19,618 nt of DNA from a virus (IMGVR_UViG_2526164662_000035:1-19618); one strand, 5' to 3'. Positions 1,619-16,884 are shown, numbered from the stretch's first letter. Translations and numbers: made by a program. The notes: generated from the sequence alone by a model not told the origin.

Positions 1619-1871
1619 TGTTCTAAATTATTTACTTTCGTATTTAAGGGGGTTAGGTTATGACCATTTGGTCAAACAAAACGTTTTAAAAATTCTGCGA
1701 TGGGTTTTTCTATGTACATATGAATGACGCTGCCAGGCGCACAAACTTATTATAAAGTATATTCCAATATATAGGAATACATTGGAATAATCAATAAGTC
1801 CGAAAGACACAAACATATATGATACCCAAGCTGTAATCAAACCATGCGTCAAATATATACTATATGAAGCA

Positions 1872-2764: not shown

Positions 2765-2880
2765 TTATATACTGACCCAATTTTGTAATTATGAAACTTT
2801 AATTGATAAGGTAAGCATACTAAATAACTGATAAAAATAATAGATCAATTGAAGGGAACACAATCAGGGTTGTGCCATCT

Positions 2881-3176
2881 GCTAAACTCCAAATATTAAA
2901 AATCACTAATACCAGAGCACTAATGGGGCTCTCCATGATGTACTGGGGACAATTGGACAAAATGGAAAGGGAAATGATTGTTGAGCGAACGCAGGCGGGA
3001 TTAGCTGAGCACTCACTGGAGGTTGGATAGGTAGCCGTAGGCCAAACCTAACAGATGAACAATGGGCGCAGGCCGGGCGATTAATTGCATCAGGCGTTCC
3101 TCGCCAGAAGGTGGCGATCATCTATGATGTTGGTATATCGACACTGTATAAGAAGTTTCCGGTCGGAGATAAATGA
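2881..3176 (+). pseudogene. DNA invertase (Gin/Pin/Hin/Cin family serine recombinase), C-terminal remnant with a -1 frameshift and no catalytic N-terminal domain
   Basis: Frame 1 (2923-3030) reads MGLSMMYWGQLDKMEREMIVERTQAGLAEHSLEVG*. Frame 0 (3021-3176) reads GWIGSRRPNLTDEQWAQAGRLIASGVPRQKVAIIYDVGISTLYKKFPVGDK*, nearly the same as the Gin/Pin C-terminal HTH region (GRIGGRRPKLTPEQWAQAGRLIAAGTPRQKVAIIYDVGVSTLYKRFPAGDK, recalled from memory). The N-terminal ~120 aa with the catalytic serine is absent. Confidence 0.8.
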
Positions 3177-3236
3177 AACCGTAGCACGTCGTATGCAAGA
3201 AGATCGTGCTGCGGTTTATGCTTATCACTTAAAGAC

Positions 3237-4106
<870 letters not shown>

Positions 4107-4190
4107 CTAACCCTTTGAATTTACATAGCGCAAAAAGATACCTTTCCTCATAATGTGAGCTAATTTTATGTTTCGTTTGATGATCGGGTC

Positions 4191-4251
4191 GGTCTCGAAA
4201 ACCGGAGTAGGGGCAACTCTACTGGGGGTTCAAATCCCCCTCTCTCCGCCA
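4191..4251 (+). other. 3' fragment (61 nt) of tRNA-Ser(CGA), serU-like; att remnant, probably the prophage attR
   Basis: ggtctcgaaaaccggagtaggggcaactctactgggggttcaaatccccctctctccgcca: anticodon loop CUCGAAA, long variable arm, T-loop GTTCAAATC, acceptor 3' strand plus CCA. The 5' acceptor strand and D-arm are not present upstream, so this is not an intact tRNA gene. Confidence 0.8.
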
Positions 4252-4826
4252 CTTTATCAATGACTTATCTCCCGACTTCCCGCCTTGCTTTTCCTAAACA
4301 GAACAATCGTAGAATATTCTTGAAGGGTTAGATCGTCACTGTTTTCTGTTCGATACTGTGACATTCAGCACTTGATTCGCTATGGATCTGACAGGAAGGT
4401 TTCGAGCGAAAATCTGCAGTTATTCAGTCGTTTTCTTATCGGTCACCATTATTCTTTTAGACATTGATCCTACAAAGCTGCCGCAAAGTTGGTGGTGGGA
4501 ACTGAAGTTGCGTAGAGAAGGGGTCAATACCCGGAGGCACACATGGGCTGGCAAAAGTGTAGCGGTATTAGGCGCAGCTATTTAGCCTAGTTATGTTTTA
4601 TGAAAACTTGATATCATATAAGTGTCTTACTTATTGGCTGTAAATAAGTTTTTCCTAAGGAATTGTTTCTTGAGTATCATTTGTAACTGTAACGGAATTT
4701 ATAATCCTTTGCTTTATTGTTACGGTATTTTTTATCACACCCTATTTTTTATGTGGTTTTTTATACTGAAGTTTGGCAAAGTGAACTTTATATGCATATA
4801 CTTCATCCTGGTTTCAGTTAAATTGG

Positions 4827-5579
4827 GTGGATGATATGGCAACTACATGTTCAGTTATATTGATTTTGGAGTCCTTTGATATTTATTTCGGAAAAGAGAG
4901 TGTGTTTCTGGAGAGAGGTTCATCTGTACTTGTCGACTCTAGCTCTAGAGATTTTTTCCTGACATATCCTGAAAGAGTGATAGTGGCGGATTTTGGCGCT
5001 GAGTTTATTAGTCGCTATTTGAAAGCTAATAACTTAAGGGATATTTCTGATTGTAGGGAATATCCATCTTATTTAAAAATAAACTTTGCTGACTTCAGTT
5101 TAATTAAAGGATTAATTAGTTGGGCTAATCACTGTGCTGAATACATAGAAATTTTTGATGAGTCTATTGCTTTTACATGTCTCTCTGCATTTTCTTCTGA
5201 AAAACAATTTGGAGTATTTCTGTTTGGATGTTTGAAAAGCACAGGGGCTAAAGTTAAAACGATTATTCATACGGATTTATCTGCACCATGGCGTCTTAAG
5301 GATATATCATCAAGATTATATCTCAGCGAAAGTTTACTAAAGAGGAAATTGAAAGAAGAGGGGATATCATTCAGTAAGATCATACTTGATGAGAGGATGC
5401 AAATGGCTGAATATTTACTCAGCACTCGTTGTTATCCTATTAGTAAAGTAGCTAAGGTCTGTGGTTATGCCAGTGTCTCATACTTTACTTATGTATTTAG
5501 ACGTTATTTTGGTGTTTCTCCAAGTCAATACTCTCAGAGGAGTTCAGAAAGTAAAATTCTTACTCACCAGGGAATCTGA
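4827..5579 (+). CDS. AraC/XylS-family transcriptional regulator (AppY/GadX/Rns-like; low GC)
   Basis: C-terminal double-HTH signature: ...LSAPWRLKDISSRLYLSESLLKRKLKEEGISFSKIILDERMQMAEYLLSTRCYPISKVAKVCGYASVSYFTYVFRRYFGVSPSQYSQR. About 250 aa, like AppY-type regulators. The ATG at 4836 has better spacing to GGTGG and may be the true start. Confidence 0.85.
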   Translation: MDDMATTCSVILILESFDIYFGKESVFLERGSSVLVDSSSRDFFLTYPERVIVADFGAEFISRYLKANNLRDISDCREYPSYLKINFADFSLIKGLISWANHCAEYIEIFDESIAFTCLSAFSSEKQFGVFLFGCLKSTGAKVKTIIHTDLSAPWRLKDISSRLYLSESLLKRKLKEEGISFSKIILDERMQMAEYLLSTRCYPISKVAKVCGYASVSYFTYVFRRYFGVSPSQYSQRSSESKILTHQGI

Positions 5580-5584
5580 TCATT

Positions 5585-5850
5585 GTTCTTGCCCCCTTAT
5601 TTCCAGACAGGGGGTGTATCTTAAGTTAACGTTACCCGCTGACGTCGATATTCTCGCGGAGAGCGATAACCCAACGCACTGTGCGGATGGTTTTCATTGT
5701 AATGTTCGATCGCCACTGCAAGATTATGCAATGCCGTTCTTACATTCGGTTTCGGCATGAACGCGATGTAGTCTTCCTTCATCGTTTTCACGAATCTTTC
5801 TGCCATTCCATTACTCTGAGGACTGCTGATTACCCATGAGGAGTACAATT
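5585..5850 (-). mobile_element. Truncated IS2-like (IS3 family) element: 3' end of the orfB transposase plus the terminal inverted repeat
   Basis: Minus-strand ORF 5621-5848 translates to ...[63 protein letters not shown], the C-terminus of IS2 OrfB. Beyond its stop the minus strand reads ...CTGTCTGGAAATAAGGGGGCAAG, matching the IS2 terminal repeat (TGTCTGGAAATATAGGGGCAAATCCA, from memory). Only ~265 bp of the IS is present, abutting the AraC gene stop. Confidence 0.8.
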
Positions 5851-6068
5851 AAACGGGTTAATCAGTTTCTCCATTTGAAAGAAAAAAGACTTCTGTACTG
5901 TTTGATATCACCGCTATTTTCTTATTTTCTGTGCAGGTCGTAGTGGGACAAAACTGAGACACATAAGGCCTCACAATGGCTTGCAAGGCTTTACATGTTT
6001 TGATGTGGTGGGACGTGTGAGCGCAGTGTTGATGGGGTAATACTTTGAATTAGAAGCGGATTCTTATG

Positions 6069-6114
6069 ATTCGTAATGCGAAGGTCGTAGGTTCGACTCC
6101 TATTATCGGCACCA
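6069..6114 (+). other. 3' fragment (46 nt) of tRNA-Thr (thrW-like); att site
   Basis: attcgtaatgcgaaggtcgtaggttcgactcctattatcggcacca matches the 3' 46 nt of E. coli thrW including CCA. The 5' half of the tRNA is not present upstream. A 46-bp thrW core is what I recall for P22-type attachment sites. Confidence 0.85.
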
Positions 6115-6721
6115 TCAAGAAAATCAATAACTTAGCTTAACTTCTCTAAGAAATTGTATCTTCTGTTATCACTTACAAACGCCTATACGTTGTTATGGGC
6201 TTTGGTAGTGTAACACGTATGGGCGAGTAGTTCCCAGGCTCAACCTCGTAACAAGTTCCTTTGAAGCTGGAAGACGTGCCACCGTCTCTAAACCTTCTAC
6301 CAAAACTCTTAGCAAGATGTTCCACACCTGGCGCGGTGTCCAATGATGCTACACGTCGAGATGACGTCGCAGAGGATAAACAGGCTAAATGATGGGAAGA
6401 GTTTTAAGTGCAATAGTGGATTAAAGCCCACCTCTTCAAAACCTAACTTGATCGGGAAAGAATCAAGCTCTAGCACGGTTTCGTCCACCGGAGTACAACG
6501 GGTGCCTGATAAGAGAAGAACTGCTAAGACTTCATAGCTTTTGTGAAAAAGCCCTTTTTAGTGGATATGCCTACGGCGCTTATTTTTTGGTATAACCATC
6601 AAAGGCGCTTTATGGCTCCTATTGTCTTGAAAATGTATCTTTACTTGTATTGTGTTTTATGCGTAGTCTCCCTGTGTAGTATGTAACTTGTTAATTTTCA
6701 TATGAATACAGAGGCAACACG

Positions 6722-6874
6722 ATGAAAAACATTGCAGCTATAAAACGTAATAACCGCAAGATTCACGCTCGTAAGTTCCTGTCTACGCCAGAGGGAAAAG
6801 CCTGGCTAGAGCGTAAACAGCGAGAGAACGAAGAAAGAAAACTCCTTAGTGAGTTGAAATGGCTTAAGGATTGA
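6722..6874 (+). CDS. Small basic protein (50 aa), hypothetical
   Basis: ATG with AGAGG 9 nt upstream. Product MKNIAAIKRNNRKIHARKFLSTPEGKAWLERKQRENEERKLLSELKWLKD. Followed by a long hairpin at 6884-6927. Below the 60-aa cutoff of the supplied ORF track. Confidence 0.35.
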   Translation: MKNIAAIKRNNRKIHARKFLSTPEGKAWLERKQRENEERKLLSELKWLKD

Positions 6875-6883
6875 ATCACCAGT

Positions 6884-6927
6884 AGGCGCATAACACATCC
6901 AGCAATCAAAGATGTGTTTGTGCGCCT
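6884..6927 (+). terminator. Long imperfect hairpin (AGGCGCATAACACATC ... GATGTGTTTGTGCGCCT) after the small ORF; possible terminator or RNA structure
   Basis: Stem of ~16 bp with an 11-nt loop read directly. The T-run (agttttttag) is ~20 nt downstream, so it is not a canonical intrinsic terminator. Confidence 0.3.
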
Positions 6928-7424
6928 GATAGTGAAATTATTAAAGTTTTTTAGTTAATGTAGCCATTGCATGAACGATGATCGCTAGTGAATCGATTTT
7001 ATCTCGAGGGGTAAAATAGATGAGGTATATGATGGTAACAATTACAGCTAAAGTAATTGTGGTTCTGCAGGTTTTTAAAATGGATAAGATAAAGCGCATA
7101 GATACCCCCTATTGATTTAACAACAACAAGGTATCATTTATTTTTTATTGCATGCAATGTGCAAATTTTCACATATAATAGCTTACTATTCACTTTGCAT
7201 GGTGTCAACAAGATGATGTGTTGTTTTGTTTGATTTGTTCAAGATAATATTTCATTTTCTCATCTATATAACTTGTGTTTTAGATAATTTCACTAATTGT
7301 AAAAGTTACGTATTGCTTAATAGCTGCCTTTTTATCTGAAATCGGCGCAAACGTGATCAATGTTTAACGCGAAGATCAGCGGCGTCAGGTCCACGCAGCG
7401 ACAATTCTCAAATATCAGGAGGCA

Positions 7425-7982
7425 TTACGCTTCCTGCTCTTTCTTGATACGTTGCACCGTCTGTGTGCTGACACTGAAATCTTTTGCTACGCTCCGAATT
7501 GATCCACCATTCGCGAGAGCGGCAACAATTCCCGCTCGATCAATTGCTTTTCCATTACCACGTTTTGCTATACGTCCAGCGGCCTTAGCTGCGGCAATCC
7601 CCTCACGTTGCCGCTCAAGCATCATTTCACGTTCCATTTGTGCCACTGCTGCAAGCACTGTGAGCATCATATTCCCTGCGGGAGAGTTCTTCCCTGTCTT
7701 AAAGTCTTCTTTATGGAAATGCACAGACACGCCGCGCTCTGTTAATTGCTCAACCGTTGCCAGTAGGTCGGCTGTATTACGGCAAAGTCGATCAATGCTG
7801 TGAACATGCAAAACATCACCTTCACGCACATAGTTCATCATTGCCTCAAACTGTGGGCGCTGGGTATTCTTGCCTGACGCTTTATCTTCAAAGACTTTAT
7901 CAAGAGTTACTCCAGCTAATTGACGGTCTGTGTTTTGTTGGACAGTCGATACCCTAATGTATCCAATATTAGCCATTTTCAT
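7425..7982 (-). CDS. Small serine recombinase (resolvase/invertase family, 185 aa)
   Basis: N-terminal catalytic motif GYIRVSTVQQNTDRQ with the conserved Ser, a central ...DRLCRNTADLL... segment, and a C-terminal HTH (GGSIRSVAKDFSVSTQTVQRIKK). Length and layout match gamma-delta/Tn3 TnpR-type resolvases. GGAA lies upstream of the ATG. Confidence 0.9.
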   Translation of the reverse strand: MKMANIGYIRVSTVQQNTDRQLAGVTLDKVFEDKASGKNTQRPQFEAMMNYVREGDVLHVHSIDRLCRNTADLLATVEQLTERGVSVHFHKEDFKTGKNSPAGNMMLTVLAAVAQMEREMMLERQREGIAAAKAAGRIAKRGNGKAIDRAGIVAALANGGSIRSVAKDFSVSTQTVQRIKKEQEA

Positions 7983-7990
7983 TTTCCTTC

Positions 7991-8107
7991 TGTGTTGATT
8001 TGTGTGTAGTGATTATTGATCGTGTTGATTAGGTGTGTAAATGACTTTTTTCACTACGAAATTCGAAGGTTTTTAGTGTGGTGATTTAGCCTGCTTTATC
8101 ACTACAC
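7991..8107. promoter_or_regulatory. Cluster of GTGT(A/G/T)G(T)GATT motifs in both orientations just upstream of the serine recombinase; candidate res/operator site
   Basis: TGTGTTGATT (7991-8000), GTGTAGTGATT (8004-8014), GTGTTGATT (8022-8030), GTGTGGTGATT (8077-8087), and inverted ATCACTACAC (8098-8107) and TCACTAC (8051-8057). Multi-subsite res sites sit immediately upstream of resolvase genes in Tn3-family systems. Confidence 0.4.
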
Positions 8108-8504
8108 GTCTTGCATGAGAATCATGTAGTTATGCTTTGGTAAAATTAGCAAGCTATTAAATAGCGTGTTTATTTTGAAAAAATTAATTTTTTCAACACG
8201 TGAAAGGAACTTGTTCGACAAATAATAGATTGATTTTTAATCAACAATTTCTGATAGTGCTCTGTAAGCCACATTACACAAGGCGCAGCGAAAGTGATGT
8301 AAAAGTGAAGAAAGCTAACATTGCACTTTTAAGCTACTTTTCATTGAATTTTTAGTATGGAATTACATAGGGATTAATCATCAATTAATCTTGAATTTAA
8401 GCCTGTTTTAGATGTTTAATTTTTGATAGCAAGAAACACTTTTAGAAGATCATTGCACAGATGTTATGTGATAAATGGATGTAACGGTAGGTCACTGTGA
8501 ACTA

Positions 8505-8640
8505 CCCCCCACAGAATTCTGTTATCCTTAACTTTTAAAGAAATATGCACCCTAACAGAAAACTGTTACCCCAACCCTAACAGAATTATGTTAGACACCC
8601 CCACAGAAAACTGTTAGCCACCCCTACAGAATTTTGTTAC
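8505..8640 (+). repeat. Array of five phased iterons, each a palindrome CCC-(T)AACAG-N4-CTGTTA, spaced ~23 bp (first one 44 bp upstream)
   Basis: Copies centred on ACAGAATTCTGT (8511-8522), TAACAGAAAACTGTTA (8553-8568), TAACAGAATTATGTTA (8578-8593), CACAGAAAACTGTTA (8602-8616), TACAGAATTTTGTTA (8625-8639). ACAG start positions 8511, 8555, 8580, 8603, 8626. Each is preceded by a short C-run. An AT-rich tract follows at ~8641-8720. Confidence 0.8.
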
Positions 8641-9135
8641 CTATTAGATCAACTATCAAACTACAATTAAATTATCTTTTATAAATTCTTTTATCTTTAA
8701 AGAATAATTATAGGGATACCCGTTAGGGGAGTCTTCGACTATCCCTTAATCTATTGGCATTCGCCAGAACCTTGCACAAGTTAGAGTGTTAGTCGTTAGA
8801 CTGCTTGTCATAACACATAGTTTTTTGTTTGTTGATGTTAGTTAGTAGATCTATGTTCGCTAATGCCGCTCACAACGAATATGTAATCTACTATGTGCAA
8901 ATAGCCTACGGCTTGCGTAAGGCTAAATAGTCTTGCGCTGTGCGCAGAACGATAATTAACTAACTACCATCTAACGATCATCAATCTATTTAAGAGAAAA
9001 TCTATTGTGCAATACTCTGACGAGTGCAATAACCTTGTGTGCTACGCGTTAGCGATGTTAGCACATAGACACAGACAACAACCAACAACAAACAAAAAGA
9101 ATGGTTTTAGTAGTTGAAGGTTAAATAAGATTCTA

Positions 9136-9365
9136 CCGCTTAAATCAAGCCGTAGGCGAGCTAAACGTATATAAGGTAGGGAAACACTTAGCGGTAATAG
9201 ATTAGCTCGTTATAGAGTTTCTGAGAGCTTTGCAGGTATTTTATAAGATGTCTGAAATTAGATTTTATCTATCATCATCTTCCCATATACCTAACAAATA
9301 CAAAATAACCCCCTTAAATAAGCCTCTGGCGAGCTAAACAGCCATTACATAAGGGAATGTATTGT
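9136..9365 (+). repeat. Two copies of a ~45-bp imperfect direct repeat (CTTAAAT-AAGCC-N3-GGCGAGCTAAAC...ATAAGG..GGGAA) about 173 bp apart
   Basis: 9136-9187 cgcttaaatcaagccgtaggcgagctaaacgtatataaggtagggaaa versus 9309-9365 cccttaaataagcctctggcgagctaaacagccattacataagggaatg. A tandem GCGTTTTAGA x2 follows at ~9388-9407. Confidence 0.6.
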
Positions 9366-9500
9366 TTTTATCAAAACCTCGTTAGAACGCGTTTTAGAGC
9401 GTTTTAGACAATAATAAAGAATAGCACTACACATGAGAGCACGAATTGCTAAGAAATATCATAACTTACTGAAAATGATCAATATTTATATGGATAGGGG

Positions 9501-9529
9501 TTGACAAAAGCTTTTAGTCGTGGTAAAGT
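9501..9529 (+). promoter_or_regulatory. Sigma70-like promoter candidate (TTGACA-17 bp-TAAAGT) upstream of the early small-gene cluster
   Basis: TTGACA at 9501-9506, 17-nt spacer, TAAAGT at 9524-9529. The first gene of the cluster starts at 9650 with a strong AGGAGG ribosome-binding site. Confidence 0.3.
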
Positions 9530-9649
9530 AATATTAGGGACAGAAAACATTCTTATCCTCTAAGTAATTAAACCAATGCACCGCACTTTGAAGCCCAAGG
9601 CTTGCAAGGTGTCTTTTTCTTTTAACCAAATAGAATAGGAGGTTAATTA

Positions 9650-9850
9650 ATGAAGTATTACACTCCACAGGATGTAATCGAAGCCTGGAAACGTGGTGAG
9701 ATCAATCGTTTTAAAGTAAGGATGAACAGGAACACAGCGCGACGCTGTGGTTATCCAGAGCGTGAAAAATGCTTTGACGATGCACTAAAAATTATTGATG
9801 AATTAAGAAAAAATGAAAAAGGATCTGAAAAAGAATCTGAAACAGAGTAA
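9650..9850 (+). CDS. Hypothetical small protein (66 aa)
   Basis: Strong ribosome-binding site (aggaggttaattaATG). Charged product MKYYTPQDVIEAWKRGEINRFKVRMNRNTARRCGYPEREKCFDDALKIIDELRKNEKGSEKESETE. First gene after the 1.7-kb noncoding region. Confidence 0.5.
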   Translation: MKYYTPQDVIEAWKRGEINRFKVRMNRNTARRCGYPEREKCFDDALKIIDELRKNEKGSEKESETE

Positions 9851-9869
9851 AGAAGAGAAGGAGAAAACT

Positions 9870-10040
9870 ATGAGCGAAACTACAGAAAAGAAAAGACAAC
9901 CACGCACTTGCTTTCATATTCCTGATGAAGTATTTCAGGTGTTGTTTAAAGAAGCCAGAAGTAAACGTATCACTGTTACAGATTACATTCTTGATATGTT
10001 GAAAAGAGAGGCTGAAACACTCTCAAACAAAAGCAAGTGA
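9870..10040 (+). CDS. Putative ribbon-helix-helix (Arc/CopG-like) DNA-binding protein (56 aa)
   Basis: ATG at 9870 preceded by GGAGAA. Product MSETTEKKRQPRTCFHIPDEVFQVLFKEARSKRITVTDYILDMLKREAETLSNKSK shows a beta-strand/helix/helix pattern (RTCFHIP / DEVFQVLFKEA / VTDYILDMLKRE) typical of RHH regulators. The ORF-track start at 9813 overlaps the upstream gene and is less likely. Confidence 0.45.
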   Translation: MSETTEKKRQPRTCFHIPDEVFQVLFKEARSKRITVTDYILDMLKREAETLSNKSK

Positions 10041-10093
10041 TTTTTATCACCATAGTAGCGCCGTAGAGCGTGATTACATCAAGGAGATTTTTA

Positions 10094-10663
10094 ATGATTA
10101 ATGAAGAACAATTTGTAAAAGTTCCTATGTGGATTCTAAAAATAAGCCAAGTAAACGGGCATAAATTTACAGATAGTGCTAAAAACCTTTACTGCTATTT
10201 GAGAGGGTTTGATCGTGCATTTCCCTCTTACGCTAAGATAGGCGATGTTTTTGGCATAACACCAAGAGCAGCAGAAGAAAGGGTTAAGAAATTGCTCGAA
10301 ATGGGATTAATTATAAAAGATGCACGACCAGGAAGCTCTAACCTTTATCGAGTGCTTGATATTCCAAAAGGAGAATCATCACTACCTGATCCTTCTGAGA
10401 AAGAAGACGAATCTAATGAAATATTGAATGTTTCCGAAATCATCGTTGAAGAAGAAACACAGGAATCAGAGTTCCCTGAGCGGCCCGAAATTTTTACTTG
10501 GCTTCTTTCCCTTGATAAGAAGAAACCACCGCACGAAGAAACAGAAGATTTTGTAAAACGTGCATTAGATTCAAAGAATATCTATCTTGAGAAACAGGCT
10601 TTTCACGATCTGATAATATCTCTAAGAGAAAAAAGTGAAATATACGATTCAATACCATTCTAA
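10094..10663 (+). CDS. Winged-helix DNA-binding protein with an acidic C-terminal region; candidate replication initiator or iteron-binding protein
   Basis: ATG at 10094 with AAGGAG 7 nt upstream. N-terminal region MINEEQFVKVPMWILKISQVNGHKFTDSAKNLYCYLRGFDRAFPSYAKIGDVFGITPRAAEERVKKLLEMGLIIKD resembles the winged-helix N-terminal domain of phage/plasmid replication initiators. Function is inferred. Confidence 0.45.
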   Translation: MINEEQFVKVPMWILKISQVNGHKFTDSAKNLYCYLRGFDRAFPSYAKIGDVFGITPRAAEERVKKLLEMGLIIKDARPGSSNLYRVLDIPKGESSLPDPSEKEDESNEILNVSEIIVEEETQESEFPERPEIFTWLLSLDKKKPPHEETEDFVKRALDSKNIYLEKQAFHDLIISLREKSEIYDSIPF

Positions 10664-10672
10664 GGAGAATAA

Positions 10673-10942
10673 ATGACTTATAACATCACTATAGGAAACA
10701 AAACTATTGAAATAACTGAAAGCGGATACAACATTTTAAAAGCTATTTTGGACATAGAGTTCTCACCCCCGACAGTGGTTAGCTTTTGTAGTTTAGGCGG
10801 CTACAGCGCACAACATGTGAATCATTGGTTAAACCATTTTACATCGTTCGGTGTGCTGGATTATGAAGGGATTAACCACACTACATTTCGTCTTTTGAAA
10901 TTAAACAAAGATTTTGAATTGTTTATCACAAACAATCAATAA
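10673..10942 (+). CDS. Hypothetical protein (89 aa)
   Basis: ATG preceded by AGGAG (taaggagaataaATG). 10 nt after the upstream gene, consistent with an operon. Confidence 0.5.
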   Translation: MTYNITIGNKTIEITESGYNILKAILDIEFSPPTVVSFCSLGGYSAQHVNHWLNHFTSFGVLDYEGINHTTFRLLKLNKDFELFITNNQ

Positions 10943-11038
10943 CAACAGATCGGGCAATACATATGGCAAATGCATTTATGGCGATATTCATCGTAACAAT
11001 GGTATCAAGTTTTTATAATCCACATAAAAAGAGAGAAA

Positions 11039-11422
11039 ATGGGAAGAAAGAAAAAGAACAACTTAAAACGTATTGAAAAAAACAGTAACTTCAATTCAAC
11101 AAGACAACGTCCACCGACACACACCAATAACGAAATTCCAGGGGAAGAGATAATATTTATTCTTGAAACAGAATCCCCTGAAATAAGCGATGAAGAACAA
11201 GAAATAATCAAATCAATGCCAGGCGTTTACTTTCGCCCAAGAACAAGAAAACAAACAATAATTTCTGATGGCACTCTGAAACGTTGGCAGCTTTTAGGGT
11301 TTAGCTCCTATCATCATTTTTTGGGATTTAACGCTTTCAATAATTGTGTAGGTGGTGCATCGGAAGTCGATCTGATGGCTCATTTAGAAGCTACATTAGC
11401 TTCTAACAAACGCTCTAACTAA
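11039..11422 (+). CDS. Hypothetical protein (127 aa), basic N-terminus and acidic middle
   Basis: ORF with N-terminal MGRKKKNNLKRIEK and a central acidic stretch ETESPEISDEEQEI. No recognisable catalytic motif. Confidence 0.45.
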   Translation: MGRKKKNNLKRIEKNSNFNSTRQRPPTHTNNEIPGEEIIFILETESPEISDEEQEIIKSMPGVYFRPRTRKQTIISDGTLKRWQLLGFSSYHHFLGFNAFNNCVGGASEVDLMAHLEATLASNKRSN

Positions 11423-11437
11423 TAAAAGGATGGTCGT

Positions 11438-11683
11438 ATGTATAAGCGCCCAATGAAAATATTCGAAAAAGGAAAAATAATGATTGGCTATATTCAAGAA
11501 ACACAATTATTTCAGATGATCCTGTCTGATGCAAAAAACTATGCTGAGTTAATCCGACTGGCAAAAGAAACAGAAGACTACGAAGCATTAGAGCGTTATC
11601 GTGATGAAGTGCTGACGCTCAAGACACCTTTTAACATCGTATTGAATATGATTAATGATGCATTACAAGGAGAAGCCGCATAA
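11438..11683 (+). CDS. Hypothetical small protein (81 aa)
   Basis: ATG preceded by AAGGATGG. Stop overlaps the start of the next ORF (TAATGG), suggesting translational coupling. Confidence 0.45.
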   Translation: MYKRPMKIFEKGKIMIGYIQETQLFQMILSDAKNYAELIRLAKETEDYEALERYRDEVLTLKTPFNIVLNMINDALQGEAA

Positions 11684-11991
11684 TGGAAGAAGATATTAGC
11701 AATGCAATGGAACAACTTTTAGATCTGACTATCTCACTACAAACAAGAATAAATCAAGCCTATTCAGATTTATGCGATTACACGCTCTCTCAATGCGTTA
11801 TTAGCTTAATGAAGGTGAATGTAAGCCTTGACGATTTTATCTCTCTGGTGAGCGATTTAGAGCTAATTGAGGACGATGCCAAGATGTGCACTCAAACCAT
11901 CACAGACACCGCCAGCACGTTAAAGGCTGCAAGTGAAGAGATTCAGCAATTAGTAGATGATTTAGCAAAAAGTGCTATTCCCTCTAAATGA
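11683..11991 (+). CDS. Hypothetical acidic helical protein (102 aa)
   Basis: Start overlaps the upstream stop. Last gene before the second ORF-free region. Confidence 0.45.
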   Translation: MEEDISNAMEQLLDLTISLQTRINQAYSDLCDYTLSQCVISLMKVNVSLDDFISLVSDLELIEDDAKMCTQTITDTASTLKAASEEIQQLVDDLAKSAIPSK

Positions 11992-12734
11992 TAATGAAAA
12001 TCATTTGCATTTATATAATAAAAATGTTATATTTGTATTAAGGGTAGATAAAAAGGTTTTGACTGGTGTTAATCCTTCTACTGTCATAAATCCCTGCATA
12101 TGGAAGGTGATAGCCTCAAGGGTTGAGTGGCATTAACCTCTAACAAATATTACCTTCCATCTCTCAAGAAGTTTTAGAATAATCATAACTCCCTCTTTGA
12201 TTGTTGATTGTTTCTACGTTGTGTTGATGAATGTTGTTAGGCATTGTGCTTAATTTTGATAAAAGCGGGTAGGTGTTATCTCCTTGCCCTTCCCGCTCTT
12301 ATTTTTCATCTATGCTTATCCTAAAGCTCCTTATTTTGTCCGAAAACATTAAAGAGCCTTACACTGATAGTTATATTTTATAACTATTTACTAACATCAT
12401 TAAACTCTTATTTAATGACAGAAGTTAGTAACAGAATAATCTATTAAGTTGTTGTCAAAAAACTATCATCTGCATAGCGTTAGCCGCAAGCAGAGAGAGT
12501 TTAGCTAAGAATTGTGCAATAACCTTTGGAAATATTGATAGCAAAACGGGTTTTATAGACTGCAAATCTATAATCTTTGGTTGTAAAAACGCTTTTTCTG
12601 AAACGGTAGATTATTGTTGGTGTAGTTAATCCCTATTAAAATTTAATCTGTGAGTAGATTGGAATAGTGATTCCTTAAAATCTGACTGGTGCATCCACAC
12701 CATGAAAGATAGCGGTTAGCCACCGCACCCGAAT

Positions 12735-12790
12735 AGATATTCCTGATTGATTCCGCATGTTTTCCTAAGAGCATGTTTTCAGGAATATCT
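12735..12790. repeat. Perfect 12-bp inverted repeat AGATATTCCTGA ... TCAGGAATATCT around a 32-bp spacer containing GCATGTTTTC twice
   Basis: Read directly: 12735-12746 and 12779-12790 are exact reverse complements. The spacer holds the direct repeat GCATGTTTTC x2. Confidence 0.7.
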
Positions 12791-12897
12791 GTTCACCCTT
12801 TAAACCTATCTTTAAGCATGTTTAATAAGCATTCTTAGAGATACGTTTAAAACCTCCTCAAGGTTTTACTTATCGCTGTGTATTGCCCGACACGTTA

Positions 12898-12950
12898 ATA
12901 AATCCCCCTCGCTATTCTCAGATTGAACCTCTTATAGCCTGGGGGATTTA
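12898..12950. repeat. Perfect 10-bp inverted repeat TAAATCCCCC ... GGGGGATTTA around a 33-bp spacer, just upstream of the structural cluster
   Basis: 12898-12907 and 12941-12950 are exact reverse complements. Lies ~30 bp upstream of the ORF starting at 12983. Confidence 0.6.
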
Positions 12951-12982
12951 TTAAATTCCAACATAATGGAATCGTTATATAA

Positions 12983-13192
12983 ATGAAACAAGAAATTATC
13001 CTGAAATATGGCAATGAAAAGTTAACACTAACTGAAGATGTGTTGAATGCTACAGCCTACGCGCTTGGTATCACTCCCACAGAATTAAAGAAACAGTGTG
13101 AACGTCTTTATAAGGCTGAAAGCAATAAACCATCTCACCAAGATTTGATTAATGCTAAAGCTCAACAAATCAAACAATCTAAGGAAAAATAA
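12983..13192 (+). CDS. Hypothetical small protein (69 aa), first gene of the structural-type cluster
   Basis: ORF whose stop overlaps the next start (TAATGG). Confidence 0.45.
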   Translation: MKQEIILKYGNEKLTLTEDVLNATAYALGITPTELKKQCERLYKAESNKPSHQDLINAKAQQIKQSKEK

Positions 13193-13566
13193 TGGCTATT
13201 TTAAAATTAAGCGATGTTTTCCTACATCGTAAAAGCATCACTGACGTAGTGAGCTATGCAACCGACCCTTACGCGGCTGTAGAAAGCAAAAAATTTGCAG
13301 CACTTGCACAAGATGTAACGTGCGGCGACCTCATTGATTCATCCGGCGCTAAATATGTTAGCGGCGCTGATGTTCTTGTCGTTGTGTCTGACTTCGTAAC
13401 TGCTGATTCAAATAAAACAGTTAACGTGCTTCGTGCTAATGCCGGACTCGTTTGCATCAAAGCTGATGCCCTGAATGCCGAAGGCGCTGTAAAAGAAGCT
13501 GCTATTGCAGCTCTCGCTGCTAAAGGCTTCCAGCTTGAAGGCTTCCACTCTGTTTTCACATCTTAA
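13192..13566 (+). CDS. Possible head decoration or scaffold protein (124 aa), positioned like lambda gpD
   Basis: AAGGAA ribosome-binding site. Ala/Val/Gly-rich product immediately upstream of the gpE-like capsid gene. The gpD analogy rests on position and size only; sequence similarity is weak. Confidence 0.4.
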   Translation: MAILKLSDVFLHRKSITDVVSYATDPYAAVESKKFAALAQDVTCGDLIDSSGAKYVSGADVLVVVSDFVTADSNKTVNVLRANAGLVCIKADALNAEGAVKEAAIAALAAKGFQLEGFHSVFTS

Positions 13567-13582
13567 GAAGGAATAAATAATA

Positions 13583-14611
13583 ATGATTATCGGAAATGAA
13601 GTGGTTGATCTTGCTCCACTGTTCGAATTAAACGACTCACGCAATTACCTACTGTCTACTCTGGATTTTACTGATCCTGTGCCTGTAGAAAGTCACAAAG
13701 TGGCTGTTTCCCAGCTTATCGAGAGCAATGAATCTCTGTTCAACCATCCTACAAGCCGTTTTAGCTCTGAGCATAACGTTACTAAGCGTGAGAACGGGGA
13801 AGAATATCTTATTGAAATCCCGTACTTTTTAAGGGAAGACCTGATCAAACCGCAGGACGTGCAAGGCAAACGCAAAGCCGGAAGCTCTATTGAAGAAACA
13901 CTGCCGGATCTGTATGCGGAATATATCGCTAAACACAATGTTGCATTCCAGCGCACTAAAGAAAGCATCCTCGCGGCTTCTCTGTTCTCTGGCAAGACAC
14001 ACACCCCGAAAACTGACGATGTTCTGATCGATTACAGCACTCTGTTCGGTGTGTCTCCAATGACTGCAACCGTTGACGCATCCAGCACCAACACAATGAC
14101 CGTATTCAAGCAATTTGATCAGATGCATACGGATATGATTGCTAAGGCACAAAGCCAGGCTGCAACCATTGAGCGTGTTGTTGTGTTCTGTAAACCTGCG
14201 GCATTCAACGCTATTCGTTACAGCGTTGGCATGGTTAATGCGTTCCAGTATGCAAGCCCTGTAGACGATGCAAACGTGGTGTTTAATGTGCGTTCTCTGC
14301 TGCCTGGTGTAACTACTTTCACCATTCCAGGAACTAACATTGACCTGATCAAAGTGACTGATCCGCTGCTGCTGGCACATATGACCGCTGACGCTGTAGC
14401 TATTCCTAAACTTGCTAAGGGGGCAGGTGTTTACCAAGCTATTTTTGGTGCGCCTTCCAGTTCATTCGATCTGCTGTCTCAAGGCGCTAAAGAGTATTAC
14501 AGCTATGCTTTCGAATCGAATCGCGGCGACGCAGTGCACGTAGTGACCGAGAATAGCTCGCTTGTGGTTAACCACGGTGTTGGCTTCTCTGTGCAGATCA
14601 CAGTAGCGTAA
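13583..14611 (+). CDS. Putative major capsid protein, lambda gpE family (342 aa)
   Basis: GAAGGA ribosome-binding site. Length matches lambda gpE (341 aa). Local matches to gpE as I recall it: HKVAVSQLIE vs EKVYLSQIPG near the N-terminus, and C-terminal GFSVQITVA vs EFVSVQLA. Needs profile confirmation. Confidence 0.55.
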   Translation: MIIGNEVVDLAPLFELNDSRNYLLSTLDFTDPVPVESHKVAVSQLIESNESLFNHPTSRFSSEHNVTKRENGEEYLIEIPYFLREDLIKPQDVQGKRKAGSSIEETLPDLYAEYIAKHNVAFQRTKESILAASLFSGKTHTPKTDDVLIDYSTLFGVSPMTATVDASSTNTMTVFKQFDQMHTDMIAKAQSQAATIERVVVFCKPAAFNAIRYSVGMVNAFQYASPVDDANVVFNVRSLLPGVTTFTIPGTNIDLIKVTDPLLLAHMTADAVAIPKLAKGAGVYQAIFGAPSSSFDLLSQGAKEYYSYAFESNRGDAVHVVTENSSLVVNHGVGFSVQITVA

Positions 14612-14763
14612 AAAGTGTTAAAGACGTTCCCCTACGTCTGGAAATAATCGGGGCAATAAGGGTAAGGGATAATCATATAAGCAAAATATGCGCTGTCTCT
14701 TGCCCTTTTTGTTTTTCTACTGTCTACAAACCTAAATAAAAATATATATGTGAGAGAAAACCA

Positions 14764-14961
14764 ATGAACACAGAAAATTCACAGGCATTAATTCTTAAAT
14801 CTGTAAAAGAACTGGCAGCTATTAGCGATGACTCAATAATCAATGTCAGTGCCTTATGCAGAATGCTTTCAATTGATGCAAATAATGTGCGTCAGCGTGT
14901 CTTTCAGACTGGATGTAGCACTTTCGAAGCAATCCAATATTATTGCTCTAAAAAACAATAA
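14764..14961 (+). CDS. Hypothetical small protein (65 aa)
   Basis: ORF between the capsid-like gene and the 613-aa gene. Weak ribosome-binding site. Confidence 0.35.
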   Translation: MNTENSQALILKSVKELAAISDDSIINVSALCRMLSIDANNVRQRVFQTGCSTFEAIQYYCSKKQ

Positions 14962-14995
14962 CAAATAACAATCATAATACAGGGAAACAATTAAC

Positions 14996-16837
14996 ATGTT
15001 AGAGCTAAACGTGGCACGCCTCTCGAACGTTGTCACCTTCGAAGTTAACCGACCATCATTAGAGAAAGCAAAAGCAGAAGTAGAAAAACTTCGTAAACAA
15101 ATGGCGGCGGTGAAAGATATAGAATTGCGTGTTAAGACACATAAACAATCAACCGCTAAAGCAAAAAAAGACGTAGACGATATTGCTAAAAAGCAAGCAC
15201 AGGCTGATAAAGCTAATGCTAAAGCACAATTAGCCGCTCAACGTGTAGTTGCAAGAGAACAAAAAGCCCTGGCAGCACGCAAAGAGAAGGCAGAATTAAA
15301 GCTTTTAGACGTTGGAGCAAGCATTAGTGCAATGCACCGTCTTTCTGTAGCGGAACAATATAAAGCTATTGCACAGGCTAGAGAAATTGCCCTCCAATAT
15401 GAAAGAGGCGCTATTAGTCTGGCACGTATGAATAGCCAAATGAAACGCCTACAACAGCAACAACGTAAGATTAATGGCAATCGTAACGCTCACGCTAAAG
15501 CCTATGCACCTGTTAAGGGTAGCGGGAGTATTGGCGGCGGTGCTGCGGCTGTTATGCTGGGTGGCTTAGGCGCTGGCGCTACGTATATGGCTATGAGCAA
15601 AGCCTCTGAATTTGTTACTAACAGCTTTGCGAATGCTGAAACGCTGGGTGAATTGTATAGCCGTGCGAAGCTGGGCGGTGTAGACGTTAACCAGATGAAC
15701 AATATTGAGCAATGGGCCTACAAAAACGGCGTTGATTCAATGATGGGCGAACAAGGTCGTAGGAAGTATCTCGATCAGATGAAAGATGTACGGGAGAAGG
15801 CTACTAAATCTTATGATGAGGCTGAATATGTAGTTGATAAGAAAACTGGTAAAGGAGAATGGAAGGGCGGCGATAGCGGCATCAATACTTTAATGAATGA
15901 AGGATTCCTAACTAAAAAGGATCTAAAAGACTTTGCTGATAATCCGGCTGGTCTGGTTAGTAAAGCAGTTCAGGGAATGGTAGCTAAAGGCTATTCAGAT
16001 GCACAAATCGGTAGTCGTCTGGAAGATCTGGCTGATGATTTGATGCTCACCTCTAAATACTGGACACGCTCCGCTAAAGAAGTGGAACAATCAGCACGAG
16101 AACAACGAGAATCAGGGCGCTGGGTAACGCAGGCACAACAGGAAAGCGTTATTAAATTCCGTGAACTGAATAATGCACTTAGTGGGCTTTCTGACTCACA
16201 AGGGATCGCCTTTGTTGATGGCTTTATGAAATCTCTTGATCCGAAAGTGATTGAAGAGTTTAAAAAGAGCATGGTTGCAATGCTGCCAATGTTTACCAAA
16301 TTAGGCGAGGCTATCGGCGGATTGGTTAACGCCGTAATGAAAACAATCAACTGGCTGATGAAAAACGACGAGAAGACGGAAGCTATTCAGAAGAATTTAG
16401 GGGATGCACCGCCACTATCTAACGAAGGAATGAAGCAGAATCTTTCTAATCTCACTCCTGATCAATATAAAGGCGCTGGCACCGGAACAACTAAGCCAGA
16501 TAACAGCAATTCCCTGGTTAACACTATTAAAAGCTGGTTTATGCCAGAAGAAACGGTAGGTGGGGCGCAGGCTGTAAATCAATACAGTCTCGAAGGACAA
16601 AATATTGCAAATCTGAAACAGAGTGCAGCACAACAAGCTTTCAAGGCTCCTTCTTACACCTTTGCACCTGTTATTAACTTCAATCCAGAATTACAAGTAA
16701 ATGCAGAAGTGCCGCTAACTATCGAATCAGACACCGGACGATTGAGCGAATTTATCGACTTCAAATCAAAGGCATCTTCCGCTGAGTTTAGCAAGCTATT
16801 AACGCTGGGTGTTATGTCAGGCGGGTCAACCTATTAA
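14996..16837 (+). CDS. Large coiled-coil protein (613 aa) with a Gly/Ala-rich hydrophobic segment; candidate internal virion, scaffold or ejection-like protein
   Basis: N-terminal ~170 aa are Lys/Ala/Gln/Glu-rich heptad-like sequence (KAKAEVEKLRKQMAAVK...KKQAQADKANAKAQLAAQR...), followed by GSGSIGGGAAAVMLGGLGAGATYMAMS and a ~400-aa C-terminal region. No Walker A motif, so not a terminase or helicase. Confidence 0.55.
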   Translation: MLELNVARLSNVVTFEVNRPSLEKAKAEVEKLRKQMAAVKDIELRVKTHKQSTAKAKKDVDDIAKKQAQADKANAKAQLAAQRVVAREQKALAARKEKAELKLLDVGASISAMHRLSVAEQYKAIAQAREIALQYERGAISLARMNSQMKRLQQQQRKINGNRNAHAKAYAPVKGSGSIGGGAAAVMLGGLGAGATYMAMSKASEFVTNSFANAETLGELYSRAKLGGVDVNQMNNIEQWAYKNGVDSMMGEQGRRKYLDQMKDVREKATKSYDEAEYVVDKKTGKGEWKGGDSGINTLMNEGFLTKKDLKDFADNPAGLVSKAVQGMVAKGYSDAQIGSRLEDLADDLMLTSKYWTRSAKEVEQSAREQRESGRWVTQAQQESVIKFRELNNALSGLSDSQGIAFVDGFMKSLDPKVIEEFKKSMVAMLPMFTKLGEAIGGLVNAVMKTINWLMKNDEKTEAIQKNLGDAPPLSNEGMKQNLSNLTPDQYKGAGTGTTKPDNSNSLVNTIKSWFMPEETVGGAQAVNQYSLEGQNIANLKQSAAQQAFKAPSYTFAPVINFNPELQVNAEVPLTIESDTGRLSEFIDFKSKASSAEFSKLLTLGVMSGGSTY

Positions 16838-16884
16838 TCATCACTGTGGGGCGGTTTAGCCCCCTTAAATAAGGATTACAAATT

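What the first reader, a model, noticed from the sequence alone, without database searches (positions are those of the whole stretch)
11992..12982. Second ORF-free ~1 kb region with two perfect inverted repeats of the same geometry (10-12 bp arms, 32-33 bp spacers)
A perfect 12-bp inverted repeat (AGATATTCCTGA/TCAGGAATATCT) and a perfect 10-bp inverted repeat (TAAATCCCCC/GGGGGATTTA), each around a 32-33 bp spacer, lie just upstream of the capsid-like cluster. A terminator-like hairpin (AGCGGG...CCCGCT plus T-run) is at ~12264-12306. A perfect 12-bp inverted repeat is unlikely by chance in 1 kb. The position between early and structural genes suits a late-promoter/activator site or a packaging (pac/cos-like) site.
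Basis: seen in the sequence. Interest (0 to 1): 0.5.

Follow-up and report, generated by a model that had tools for sequence, protein, structure and literature searches.

The report
Structured terminator-laden leader of capsid operon
The "empty" 1 kb is most likely the long, heavily folded, untranslated start of the RNA for the capsid and tail genes of an undescribed phage-satellite-like island in E. coli; the two inverted repeats are RNA hairpins, one of them a transcription stop signal placed just before the first gene, so it probably keeps those genes off until the stop signals are overridden.

Summary
There is a terminator-like hairpin at 12259-12307 and no conserved ORF.

A sigma-70 promoter (12004-12033, TSS about 12041) sits at the left edge and is conserved in every relative where it was found (about 90 loci). 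The whole 942 nt up to the first late gene looks like a plus-strand leader RNA. It folds far better than shuffles (z = -9.4) and its helices covary.

IR1 (12731-12794) is a two-tier hairpin that exists in four different sequence versions, with G.U wobbles and conserved loops. IR2 (12895-12954) is an intrinsic terminator. 70 of 71 distinct leaders, of five unalignable types, have such a terminator 13-85 nt before the late-gene ATG. A further terminator follows the capsid gene.

Best reading (inferred, not shown): a termination gate on the late operon that is opened by antitermination.

There is no Rfam family, no matching phage DNA, and no paper on this island in the library searched. The island's capsid, tape-measure and Dit-like proteins resemble those of lytic Phapecoctavirus phages.

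The parts
11683..11991 (+). Last early gene (102 aa, no known family). Its stop codon lies 12 nt before the -35 of the late promoter.
   Evidence: ORF list. Annotated as a hypothetical protein in RefSeq. No Pfam, PHROG or NCBIfam family.
12004..12033 (+). Late promoter of sigma-70 type: -35 TTTGCA (12004-12009), 18-nt spacer, TGn plus -10 TATATT (12028-12033). The inferred start is at about 12041, the A of AGGG.
   Evidence: Consensus scan. The same layout, TTGAC(A/T) - 17/18 nt - TAnAAT - 6-9 nt - (A/G)GGG, was found in about 90 related loci of all five leader types. The start site is inferred from spacing, not measured.
12014..12031 (.). Palindrome TATAAT-N6-GTTATA inside the promoter spacer. 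It is operator-like, and the spacer is the most variable stretch of the region.
   Evidence: The half-sites TATAAY / RTTATA are kept while the centre varies among the 24 variants. Columns 12013-12042 are only 58% identical to the window. Related TAAC-N6-GTTA palindromes occur in other leader types. Protein binding is inferred.
12041..12982 (+). Untranslated 942-nt leader of the late operon, a chain of about 15 hairpins.
   Evidence: MFE -264 kcal/mol against -201 +/- 6.8 for shuffles, z = -9.4 (z = -6.9 for the - strand). Small ORFs in the variable part are not conserved; those in the invariant 5' part cannot be tested. Every relative has a leader at this position, of about 270 to 960 nt.
12041..12162 (+). 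5' domain: a 5'-terminal helix that uses the initial AGGG, plus a long hairpin H2 (12100-12160).
   Evidence: Fold. Covariance model R2 finds the same domain exactly at the start site of the otherwise unalignable L021-L024 leaders (E 5e-9 to 8e-6), with the 13-bp H2 stem wholly replaced but still paired. The GAC to AGU change in the L019 variant keeps three pairs through G.U or A-U.
12259..12307 (+). First intrinsic-terminator-like hairpin (T1) with a U tract. It would end an RNA of about 265 nt.
   Evidence: dG -16.1 and identical in the win-type variants scanned (window, L002, L003, L019); the surrounding block 12253-12312 is 99-100% identical across the 24 variants. The L022-type leaders have a terminator at the equivalent place, +207 to +233. 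Termination activity is not tested.
12308..12500 (+). Nearly invariant middle segment with hairpins at 12366-12390 and 12388-12431.
   Evidence: 7% variable columns, against 31% in the adjacent 102-aa CDS and 55% in the 69-aa CDS. Hairpins.
12687..12726 (+). Two small hairpins: H9 (12687-12702, loop CAUCCA) and H10 (12712-12726, loop UAGCC).
   Evidence: Both are kept in win-type and L022-type leaders, with compensatory changes: GGUG/CACC to GAUG/CAUU, and GCGGU/ACCGC to GCGAU/AUCGC.
12731..12794 (+). It has a 16-bp outer stem, a conserved 5' internal loop GAUUCC, a 5-9 bp inner stem and a conserved apical YCCUAAG loop.
   Evidence: Four sequence versions all fold the same way. On a model-fitted alignment, 11 of 16 outer-stem pairs change on both sides and 98.7% of cells are paired. 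The + strand is more stable than the - strand in most versions.
12799..12851 (+). Long imperfect hairpin H12.
   Evidence: Fold. 21 pairs, 3 with changes on both sides, 98.7% of cells paired (helix 8).
12895..12960 (+).
   Evidence: Compensatory AAAUCCCCC/GGGGGAUUU to AAAGCCCC/GGGGCUUU, the latter followed by UUUUUAUUU, in relatives. 70 of 71 distinct leaders carry a terminator in the last 150 nt, with the U tract 13-85 nt from the ATG. In this window the tail AUUUAUUAAAUU is weaker than in most relatives.
12955..12972 (+). Small hairpin between T2 and the start codon. It holds the only Shine-Dalgarno-like bases (GGAA).
   Evidence: Folds. Helix 12 has 2 of 4 pairs with changes on both sides.
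12983..13192 (+). First late gene (69 aa). It begins only 28 nt after T2, so it can only be transcribed through T2.
   Evidence: ORF intact in 24 of 24 variants. No + strand promoter-like site between 12034 and 12982.
14651..14716 (+). Context: a further intrinsic terminator (T3) right after the capsid gene and before the tape-measure-like and Dit-like genes.
   Evidence: Seen in the sequence. Present in all 15 family members that could be examined, with covarying stems, runs of 5-8 U and an apical motif GCGCAAWU kept in most of them.

Best explanation
The region is the promoter plus the 942-nt untranslated, highly structured leader RNA of the island's late operon (69 aa, 124 aa, capsid protein, 65 aa, tape-measure-like, Dit-like).

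Proposed mechanism: RNA polymerase starts at a strong sigma-70 promoter at about 12041 and transcribes a chain of hairpins. Late genes are made only when the polymerase becomes termination-resistant, that is, by processive antitermination. The same state would also carry it through the strong terminator after the capsid gene.

The agent is unknown. It could be a protein of the island's early operon, a protein of the helper phage, or the leader RNA itself. The first repeat is a conserved two-tier hairpin with sequence-specific loops, so it is a likely protein-recognition or RNA-processing element within the leader.

Shown: the anatomy, conservation, covariation, strand preference, and terminator-like sequences at fixed positions.

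Inferred: the transcription start, actual termination, and the existence of antitermination.
For: 1. Promoter. TTGAC(A/T)-17/18-TAnAAT followed by (A/G)GGG sits directly after the last early gene in about 90 loci from E. coli, Citrobacter, Kluyvera, Buttiauxella and others. This holds although the leaders fall into five types that do not align.

2. RNA-level selection on the + strand.
- Fold z-score -9.4.
- On 12640-12982, 98.7% of cells are paired and 12 pairs change on both sides. The covariation score is 0.205, against 0.118 +/- 0.007 in shuffles (0 of 500 reach it) and at most 0.065 when partners are slid.
- With a covariance-model alignment that includes a second leader type, 19 of 35 pairs are compensatory.
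- More than 120 G.U cells against 14 unpaired cells.
- The 5' domain is recovered at the start site of the L022-type leaders, with its 13-bp stem rewritten.

3. The 5' 460 nt are the most conserved DNA of the neighbourhood: 7-10% variable columns, against 31% and 55% in the flanking genes.

4. Terminators.
- T1 is identical in the variants scanned and its block is 99-100% conserved across the 24.
- T2-equivalents occur in 70 of 71 distinct leaders, 13-85 nt before the ATG.
- The one exception differs by a point change in the terminator stem (GGGGCTTAACCTCCCC against GGGGCTTAACCGCCCC in its relatives).
- There is no + strand promoter-like site inside the leader, and only 28 nt lie between T2 and the ATG.

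5. More terminators in the same logic. A strong one follows the capsid gene in all 15 family members that could be examined, 20-50 nt before the next gene. A hairpin plus U tract also lies in the short leader of the early operon, whose promoter has the same AGGG start.

6. Precedent. The lambdoid PR' promoter is constitutively active but terminated just downstream until Q acts, and it yields a short RNA by-product (PMC7547250). Q binds partly between -35 and -10 (PMC6266700). Here an operator-like palindrome occupies that spacer.
Against: - No expression data. The start site, termination efficiency and read-through are all inferred.
- No antiterminator was identified. The island's small early proteins match no Pfam, PHROG or NCBIfam family apart from a Rep/O-like HTH. 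The structure model of the family-wide 127-aa protein was unusable, with pLDDT 54.
- No convincing -10-like pause element follows the start, as a lambda-Q mechanism would need (read from the sequences).
- The five leader types share no motif beyond the promoter and the terminator, so a single RNA-binding factor for all types is unlikely.
- A terminator after a capsid gene also occurs where read-through is simply partial (phage T7 T-phi, own knowledge). Terminators alone therefore do not prove antitermination.
- A gate does not obviously need about 940 nt and about 15 hairpins. The L006-type relatives manage with about 270 nt.
- In this particular window the U tract of T2 is interrupted.
Confidence: 0.55

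Rival explanations
1. Passive attenuator or insulator. The terminators are leaky by design and there is no dedicated antitermination. They shield the late operon from read-through out of the early operon and set stoichiometry (much capsid protein, little tail protein). The structured leader merely stabilises the mRNA and keeps Rho off a long untranslated RNA. Regulation happens only at the promoter, through the palindromic operator.
For: An operator-like palindrome lies in the promoter spacer. The late promoter directly abuts the early operon. The T2 U tract is imperfect in this window. A terminator placed after the capsid gene fits stoichiometric control. The 5'-terminal helices involving the initial GGG look like mRNA stabilisers, and the same design is seen at early promoters of phage ESCO5.
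Against: Most relatives have canonical strong terminators, with 8-bp GC-rich stems and 5-8 U. Two or three of these in series before or within one operon would leave little read-through. This reading does not explain the conserved loop sequences of the first repeat. Nor does it explain why the 5' 460 nt are more conserved than the neighbouring genes.
Confidence: 0.2
2. The RNA itself is the product. The terminated transcripts (about 265 nt to T1, about 920 nt to T2) are trans-acting non-coding RNAs. They might be a regulatory sRNA like StxS, a decoy or sensor for a helper-phage protein, or an assembly or packaging RNA. Gating of the late genes would be secondary. This is not exclusive of the main explanation.
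For: Extreme conservation of 12041-12500. Strong fold and covariation. Conserved single-stranded loop motifs GAUUCC, YCCUAAG, CAUCCA and UAGCC. Precedent of StxS from PR' (PMC7547250). A second long non-coding stretch lies behind a similar promoter at about 8712 in the same island.
Against: No Rfam family matches. There is no complementarity to the rest of the leader beyond shuffles, and none to the ESCO5 genome beyond chance. The other leader types are unrelated in sequence and much shorter, which argues against one conserved trans function. The position immediately upstream of the late genes is invariant.
Confidence: 0.15
3. One reading: the inverted repeats are DNA sites, either binding sites for a late activator or repressor, or a pac/cos packaging site recognised by a helper terminase.
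For: The island has a capsid gene but no terminase or portal gene. It must therefore borrow packaging functions if it is packaged at all, and a packaging site must exist somewhere. Perfect palindromes can be protein sites.
Against: The repeats lie 690-900 nt downstream of the only conserved promoter. Arm sequences are replaced wholesale while pairing is kept, with G.U (equal to A.C in DNA) tolerated on one strand only. The second repeat carries a U tract and has terminator equivalents in all leader types. There is no similarity to any of 50,697 phage records or to ESCO5. There are no iterons here; they lie at 8503-8632.
Confidence: 0.05

Closest known systems
Lambdoid late control: PR' - qut - 6S/StxS RNA - tR' with antiterminator Q
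   Same: A strong sigma-70 promoter lies directly upstream of the structural genes. It is followed by an untranslated leader that ends in an intrinsic terminator, giving a short terminated RNA as by-product. A specificity element lies between -35 and -10, and there are further terminators inside the late operon (PMC7547250, PMC6266700).
   Different: No Q homologue is detected in the island. There is no clear -10-like pause element after the start. The spacer element is a palindrome, whereas the lambda Q site is not (own knowledge). The leader is 4-5 times longer than 6S RNA and is built of about 15 covarying hairpins.
HK022 put RNA (cis-acting antiterminator RNA)
   Same: A structured RNA is made just downstream of a repressor-controlled promoter. 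It could let only transcripts from that promoter pass downstream terminators. A constraint by the host polymerase would explain the very high conservation of the 5' domain.
   Different: put is about 70 nt with two stem-loops (own knowledge). No sequence or model comparison was possible, since no put family turned up in either Rfam search. If read-through were constitutive, T1 would serve no purpose.
Satellite P4 immunity region (PLE leader, CI RNA) and the P1/P7 C4 antisense RNA
   Same: A satellite uses a constitutive promoter plus premature termination in a non-coding leader to keep downstream genes off.
   Different: Those systems rely on complementarity between a processed small RNA and sites in the same transcript. 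No such complementarity above shuffled controls was found, and there was no hit to the C4/CI family in Rfam.
Lambda N / nut and RfaH / ops leaders
   Same: Long leaders that recruit a processive antiterminator. The two-tier hairpin with conserved loops could in principle be a boxB-like protein site.
   Different: There is no ops match within the leader at 2 mismatches or fewer. The lambda boxA 8-mer CGCTCTTA occurs once (12294-12301), but inside the T1 stem. That is a chance-level finding, and the 9-mer consensus is absent. The Arg/Lys-rich N-terminus of the 127-aa early protein is only a loose resemblance.

Membership tests
Intrinsic (Rho-independent) terminator | GC-rich stem-loop immediately followed by a U tract on the transcribed strand | tested here: met
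   T1 at 12259-12302 plus TTTTT, dG -16.1. T2 at 12895-12954: relatives have GGGGCUUUUUAUUU, while this window has a weaker tail, AUUUAUUAAAUU. 70 of 71 distinct leaders pass a hairpin-plus-U-tract scan.
Intrinsic (Rho-independent) terminator | Actually stops RNA polymerase | not testable with these tools
   Needs Term-seq or in vitro transcription.
Lambdoid Q-dependent late leader (PR'/qut/tR') | Constitutive-type sigma-70 promoter followed by a terminator before the late genes | tested here: met
Lambdoid Q-dependent late leader (PR'/qut/tR') | A Q-family antiterminator gene upstream | tested here: not met
   No Q family matched any of the island proteins scanned against Pfam, PHROGs or NCBIfam. 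A helper-encoded factor cannot be excluded.
Lambdoid Q-dependent late leader (PR'/qut/tR') | Sigma-dependent promoter-proximal pause element (-10-like hexamer in the initial transcribed region) | tested here: inconclusive
   The initial transcripts AGGGUAGAUAAAA, AGGGGUGAUUAUU and AGGGUAAGUAUUC contain no consistent TAnnnT hexamer (sequences, read by eye).
P4 CI / P1 C4 antisense-RNA immunity leaders | Match to the Rfam C4 family, or internal complementarity between a leader segment and downstream target sites | tested here: not met
   No Rfam hit even at E up to 10. The best duplex between 12041-12306 and 12307-13030 is -28.4 kcal/mol, within the range of shuffled controls.
RfaH/ops leader | ops element GGCGGTAGnnTG on the non-template strand of the leader | tested here: not met
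   No match with 2 mismatches or fewer inside 11992-12982. Matches elsewhere in the window are at chance level.
Lambda N / nut site | boxA (CGCTCTTTA-like) followed by a boxB hairpin, conserved among relatives | tested here: not met
   The 9-mer YGCTCTTWA is absent. The 8-mer at 12294-12301 is part of the T1 stem, and no shared motif exists across leader types.
Any described RNA family (Rfam 15) | Score at or above the gathering threshold | tested here: not met
   0 hits in the window. The best sub-threshold hits are 18 bits against thresholds of 56-112.
Phage pac/cos site | Sequence shared with the packaging site of a helper phage | tested here: not met
   No match in the phage collection. 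Only chance-level words shared with Phapecoctavirus ESCO5. A short unshared site cannot be excluded.
Replication origin with iterons | Array of directly repeated initiator sites | tested here: not met
   No repeat family inside the region. The island's iteron-like array is at 8503-8632.

The most novel reading that the evidence does not exclude
The 820-960-nt leader (win type plus L022 type) is a new class of large structured non-coding RNA, specific to a previously undescribed satellite-like island of lytic Phapecoctavirus phages. Its conserved loops sense a helper-phage product, or act on RNA polymerase in cis like a giant put element. In that way they convert infection into read-through of three terminators and expression of the island's own capsid, tape-measure and Dit proteins.
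Probability: 0.2. Interest if true: 0.85.

Novelty: new variant of a known kind. Interest (0 to 1): 0.6.

Why it matters
If correct, it gives the regulatory logic of an apparently undescribed island family. The family is present in about 5% of complete E. coli genomes (285 of 5426) and in other Enterobacteriaceae. Its members carry their own capsid, tape-measure-like and Dit-like genes related to those of virulent Phapecoctavirus phages.

A termination gate built from a long covarying RNA would be a compact, testable switch linking helper infection to satellite gene expression. It would add a large structured RNA with clear covariation to the short list known from mobile elements.

It also supplies exact coordinates for experiments: promoter, start site, three terminators, and a hairpin with conserved loops.

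Tried and rejected
- Rfam at gathering and at permissive thresholds: nothing. tRNA/tmRNA: none.
- DNA similarity of the region to phage and plasmid collections: none in phages; the two hits in the plasmid collection are copies of the same island in E. coli records.
- Small-protein genes: ORFs in the variable part are not conserved, including a hydrophobic 36-aa ORF on the - strand, intact in 4 of 24 variants.
- P4-like internal complementarity: not above shuffles.
- A motif common to all five leader types: none beyond T-rich words.
- Global RNAalifold on 22 L007-type leaders: failed because the MAFFT alignment is mosaic. Compensatory stems there were seen only by eye and are not counted as evidence.
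- T7-like single-subunit polymerase promoter, suggested by TATAGGG: rejected, because the specificity region at -12 to -5 is not conserved among relatives (sequences).
- ops and boxA: rejected.
- Invertible-promoter switch for the island's serine recombinase: no long-range inverted repeats flank the promoter.
- Structure of the conserved 127-aa early protein, as an antiterminator candidate: pLDDT 54, so no fold search was made.
- Correlation of promoter-spacer type with alleles of the early genes: none evident.
- The loop motif GATTCC...TCCTAAGAGC in viral contigs: hits look like chance or copies of the same island, not informative.
- Covariance models R1 and R2 on the whole ESCO5 genome: no homologue.
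- Literature: no paper on such islands or on Phapecoctavirus satellites in the held library.

Full report
**What is there**

The window holds a chromosomal island of about 11 kb. The region in question is found in 283-286 RefSeq records, that is 282-285 of 5426 complete E. coli genomes. In the three copies examined the island lies next to tRNA-Thr or tRNA-Leu, or at the same thrW-side junction.

Its order, taken, is:
- a small serine recombinase on the minus strand (7425-7982);
- about 1.7 kb of non-coding DNA;
- an early operon of small genes, including a Rep/O-like HTH protein (9650-11991);
- the roughly 1 kb of the finding (11992-12982);
- a late operon: 69 aa, 124 aa, a lambda-gpE-type capsid protein (13583-14611, Pfam Phage_cap_E), 65 aa, a tape-measure-like 613-aa protein and a Dit-like 225-aa protein;
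- a tyrosine integrase on the minus strand.

There is no terminase or portal gene.

**Check of the observation**

Both inverted repeats, the terminator-like hairpin and the lack of ORFs are real.
- A perfect 12-bp inverted repeat with a spacer of 60 nt or less appears in 0.65% of dinucleotide shuffles of the region. The region has two.

**Relatives**

Using the capsid protein I gathered more than 100 related loci. They come from E. coli and other Enterobacteriaceae (Citrobacter, Enterobacter, Kluyvera, Buttiauxella, Scandinavium) and from metagenomes and viral contigs; protein hits also include Klebsiella, Cronobacter and Serratia.

Every locus has a non-coding leader between the last early gene and a small first late gene. 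The leaders fall into five types:
- about 942 nt (this window, "win type");
- about 820 nt (L022 type);
- 510-690 nt (L007 type);
- about 425 nt (L080 type);
- about 270 nt (L006 type).

The types do not align with one another. All types share two things.

First, a promoter directly after the early operon. It reads TTGAC(A/T), 17-18 nt, TAnAAT, then 6-9 nt, then (A/G)GGG.
- In the window this is 12004-12033, which puts the start at about 12041.
- The promoter spacer is the most variable stretch of the whole region (58% identity to the window).
- It nevertheless keeps a palindrome, TATAAY-N6-RTTATA.

Second, a canonical intrinsic terminator 13-85 nt before the late-gene ATG, in 70 of 71 distinct leaders.
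- Relatives carry AAAGCCCC...GGGGCUUUUUAUUU in its place.

**The leader is under selection as a plus-strand RNA**

- The 942 nt fold with z = -9.4 on the plus strand and z = -6.9 on the minus strand.
- Among 24 win-type variants, the 5' 460 nt have 7-10% variable columns. The adjacent 102-aa gene has 31% and the 69-aa gene has 55%.
- In the more variable 3' third, the RNAalifold structure is 98.7% paired, with 12 pairs changed on both sides. Its covariation score is 0.205, against 0.118 in shuffles (0 of 500 reach it) and at most 0.065 for slid partners. There are more than 120 G.U cells against 14 unpaired cells.

Three win-type versions and one L022-type version have quite different arm sequences. 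All keep a 16-17 bp outer stem, a 5' internal loop GAUUCC, an inner stem and an apical YCCUAAG loop.

Two covariance models tie the win and L022 types together.
- A model of 12684-12803 recovers this domain in the L022-type leaders. On its alignment 19 of 35 pairs are compensatory, 11 of 16 of them in the outer stem. That alignment is fitted to the model, which favours the structure.
- A second model, of 12041-12162, finds the 5' domain exactly at the start site of the L022-type leaders, with the 13-bp stem of hairpin H2 rewritten.

So the win and L022 leaders are one RNA family of 820-960 nt. Rfam has nothing like it.

**Mechanism**

- The late genes can only be transcribed through T2. Only 28 nt separate it from the ATG, and no + strand promoter-like site lies inside the leader.
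- T1 (12259-12307) is identical in the variants scanned, and its block is 99-100% conserved across the 24.
- A third strong terminator follows the capsid gene in all 15 family members that could be examined. Their stems covary, and an apical motif GCGCAAWU is kept in most of them.
- The early operon has the same design in miniature: promoter 9501-9529, AGGG start, and a hairpin plus U tract before the first gene.

The best-supported reading is therefore a termination gate. Transcription from a strong promoter normally ends inside the leader, and late genes appear only under processive antitermination. This is the logic of lambdoid PR'/Q, where the promoter is always on and a short RNA is a by-product (PMC7547250, PMC6266700).

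What I could not find is the antiterminator. No island protein matches a known antiterminator family, and the one structure prediction I tried was too poor to use. Also missing are a sigma-dependent pause element, ops, nut, and P4-like internal complementarity.

Three alternatives remain open:
- a factor-free, put-like action of the leader;
- merely leaky terminators plus operator control;
- an independent function of the terminated RNAs.

A DNA-site reading (activator site, pac/cos) is poorly supported. The arms are replaced while pairing is kept, and wobble pairs occur on one strand only. There is also no similarity to any phage DNA.

**Lead on the helper phage**

The island's proteins resemble those of 145-150 kb lytic Phapecoctavirus phages:
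- the Dit-like protein is 52-53% identical (64% in the L002 island variant);
- the tape-measure-like protein is 27% identical (32% in the L002 variant);
- the capsid protein is 24-25% identical.

They correspond to ESCO5 gp243, gp244 and gp253, and the genes stand in the same relative order. The phage has no homologue of the leader domains.

Its early promoters show a similar design: TTGACA, 16-17 nt, TAnnnT, 8-10 nt, then TAGGGCGG, which opens a 5'-terminal hairpin. This is a resemblance, not a demonstrated link.

**Verdict**

The finding is a real, non-random and conserved feature. It is best described as a new, unusually large and structured variant of a terminator-gated late-operon leader, in an island family that I could not find described in the library searched. 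No step of the proposed function has been shown experimentally.

Noticed in passing
window 7425-19007 (whole island); phage ESCO5 loci L247-L249: The island looks like an undescribed satellite or hijacker of lytic Phapecoctavirus phages. Its Dit-like (53% identity), tape-measure-like (27%) and capsid (24%) proteins match ESCO5 gp243, gp244 and gp253, in the same order. It has an integrase and a Rep-like gene but no terminase or portal. It is present in about 5% of complete E. coli genomes.
   Followed up: partly
window 8503-8632: Array of five palindromic iteron-like repeats, (T/C)AACAGAA-N3/4-TGTTA, 23-44 nt apart, in the first non-coding region. It is a likely origin or operator array. Its half-sites resemble the TAAC-N6-GTTA palindromes in the late-promoter spacers of relatives.
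   Followed up: partly
window 8675-9500: A third promoter-like site has the same TATAGGG start context (start at about 8712). Its RNA would open with a 7-bp 5'-terminal helix (AGGGAUA...UAUCCCU). It heads about 800 nt of further non-coding sequence, possibly a second long non-coding RNA.
   Followed up: no
window 9501-9649: Early promoter TTGACA-17-TAAAGT with an AGGG start at about 9536. It is followed by a 114-nt leader that holds a hairpin (about 9583-9612) plus UCUUUUUCUUUU before the first early gene. This is the same promoter-then-terminator logic as the late operon.
   Followed up: partly
window 14651-14716 and the equivalent sites in L007, L011, L022, L025, L080 and others: A strong terminator lies directly after the capsid gene in all 15 family members that could be examined. 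The stems covary, and an apical loop motif GCGCAAWU is kept in most of them, which suggests more than a plain terminator.
   Followed up: partly
L002 10078-11709 and L003 10057-11688, compared with window 12983-14611: Mosaicism. Islands whose leader is 85-91% identical to the window carry a different capsid module. Their 343-aa protein is not detectably similar to the window's capsid protein. The breakpoint lies inside the 3' part of the leader, at about 12500-12980.
   Followed up: partly
phage ESCO5 141,050-147,150 (L249 about 41,050-47,150): About 13 near-identical early promoter units, TTGACA-16/17-TAnnnT-8/10-TAGGGCGG. In each, the transcript would start with a GGGCGG...CCGCC 5' hairpin. 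They resemble the island's (T)A(N)(A/G)GGG start context.
   Followed up: partly
window 12712-12726 compared with 8612-8625: The 10-mer GTTAGCCACC is shared between hairpin H10 of the leader and one iteron of the upstream array. This is about chance level (roughly 0.1 expected), but it was noted.
   Followed up: no
window 1-7300: The left part of the window is unrelated to the island and differs from the closest genome (CAU16175). It holds a tail-collar-domain protein, an acyltransferase, a GIY-YIG protein and an AraC-type regulator, that is, a prophage remnant or other cargo.
   Followed up: no
window 11039-11422: The 127-aa early protein is the best-conserved early protein detected across the family (28-39% identity in other genera). 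It has an Arg/Lys-rich N-terminus (MGRKKKNNLKR) and matches no known family, so it is a candidate nucleic-acid-binding regulator. The structure prediction failed with pLDDT 54.
   Followed up: partly
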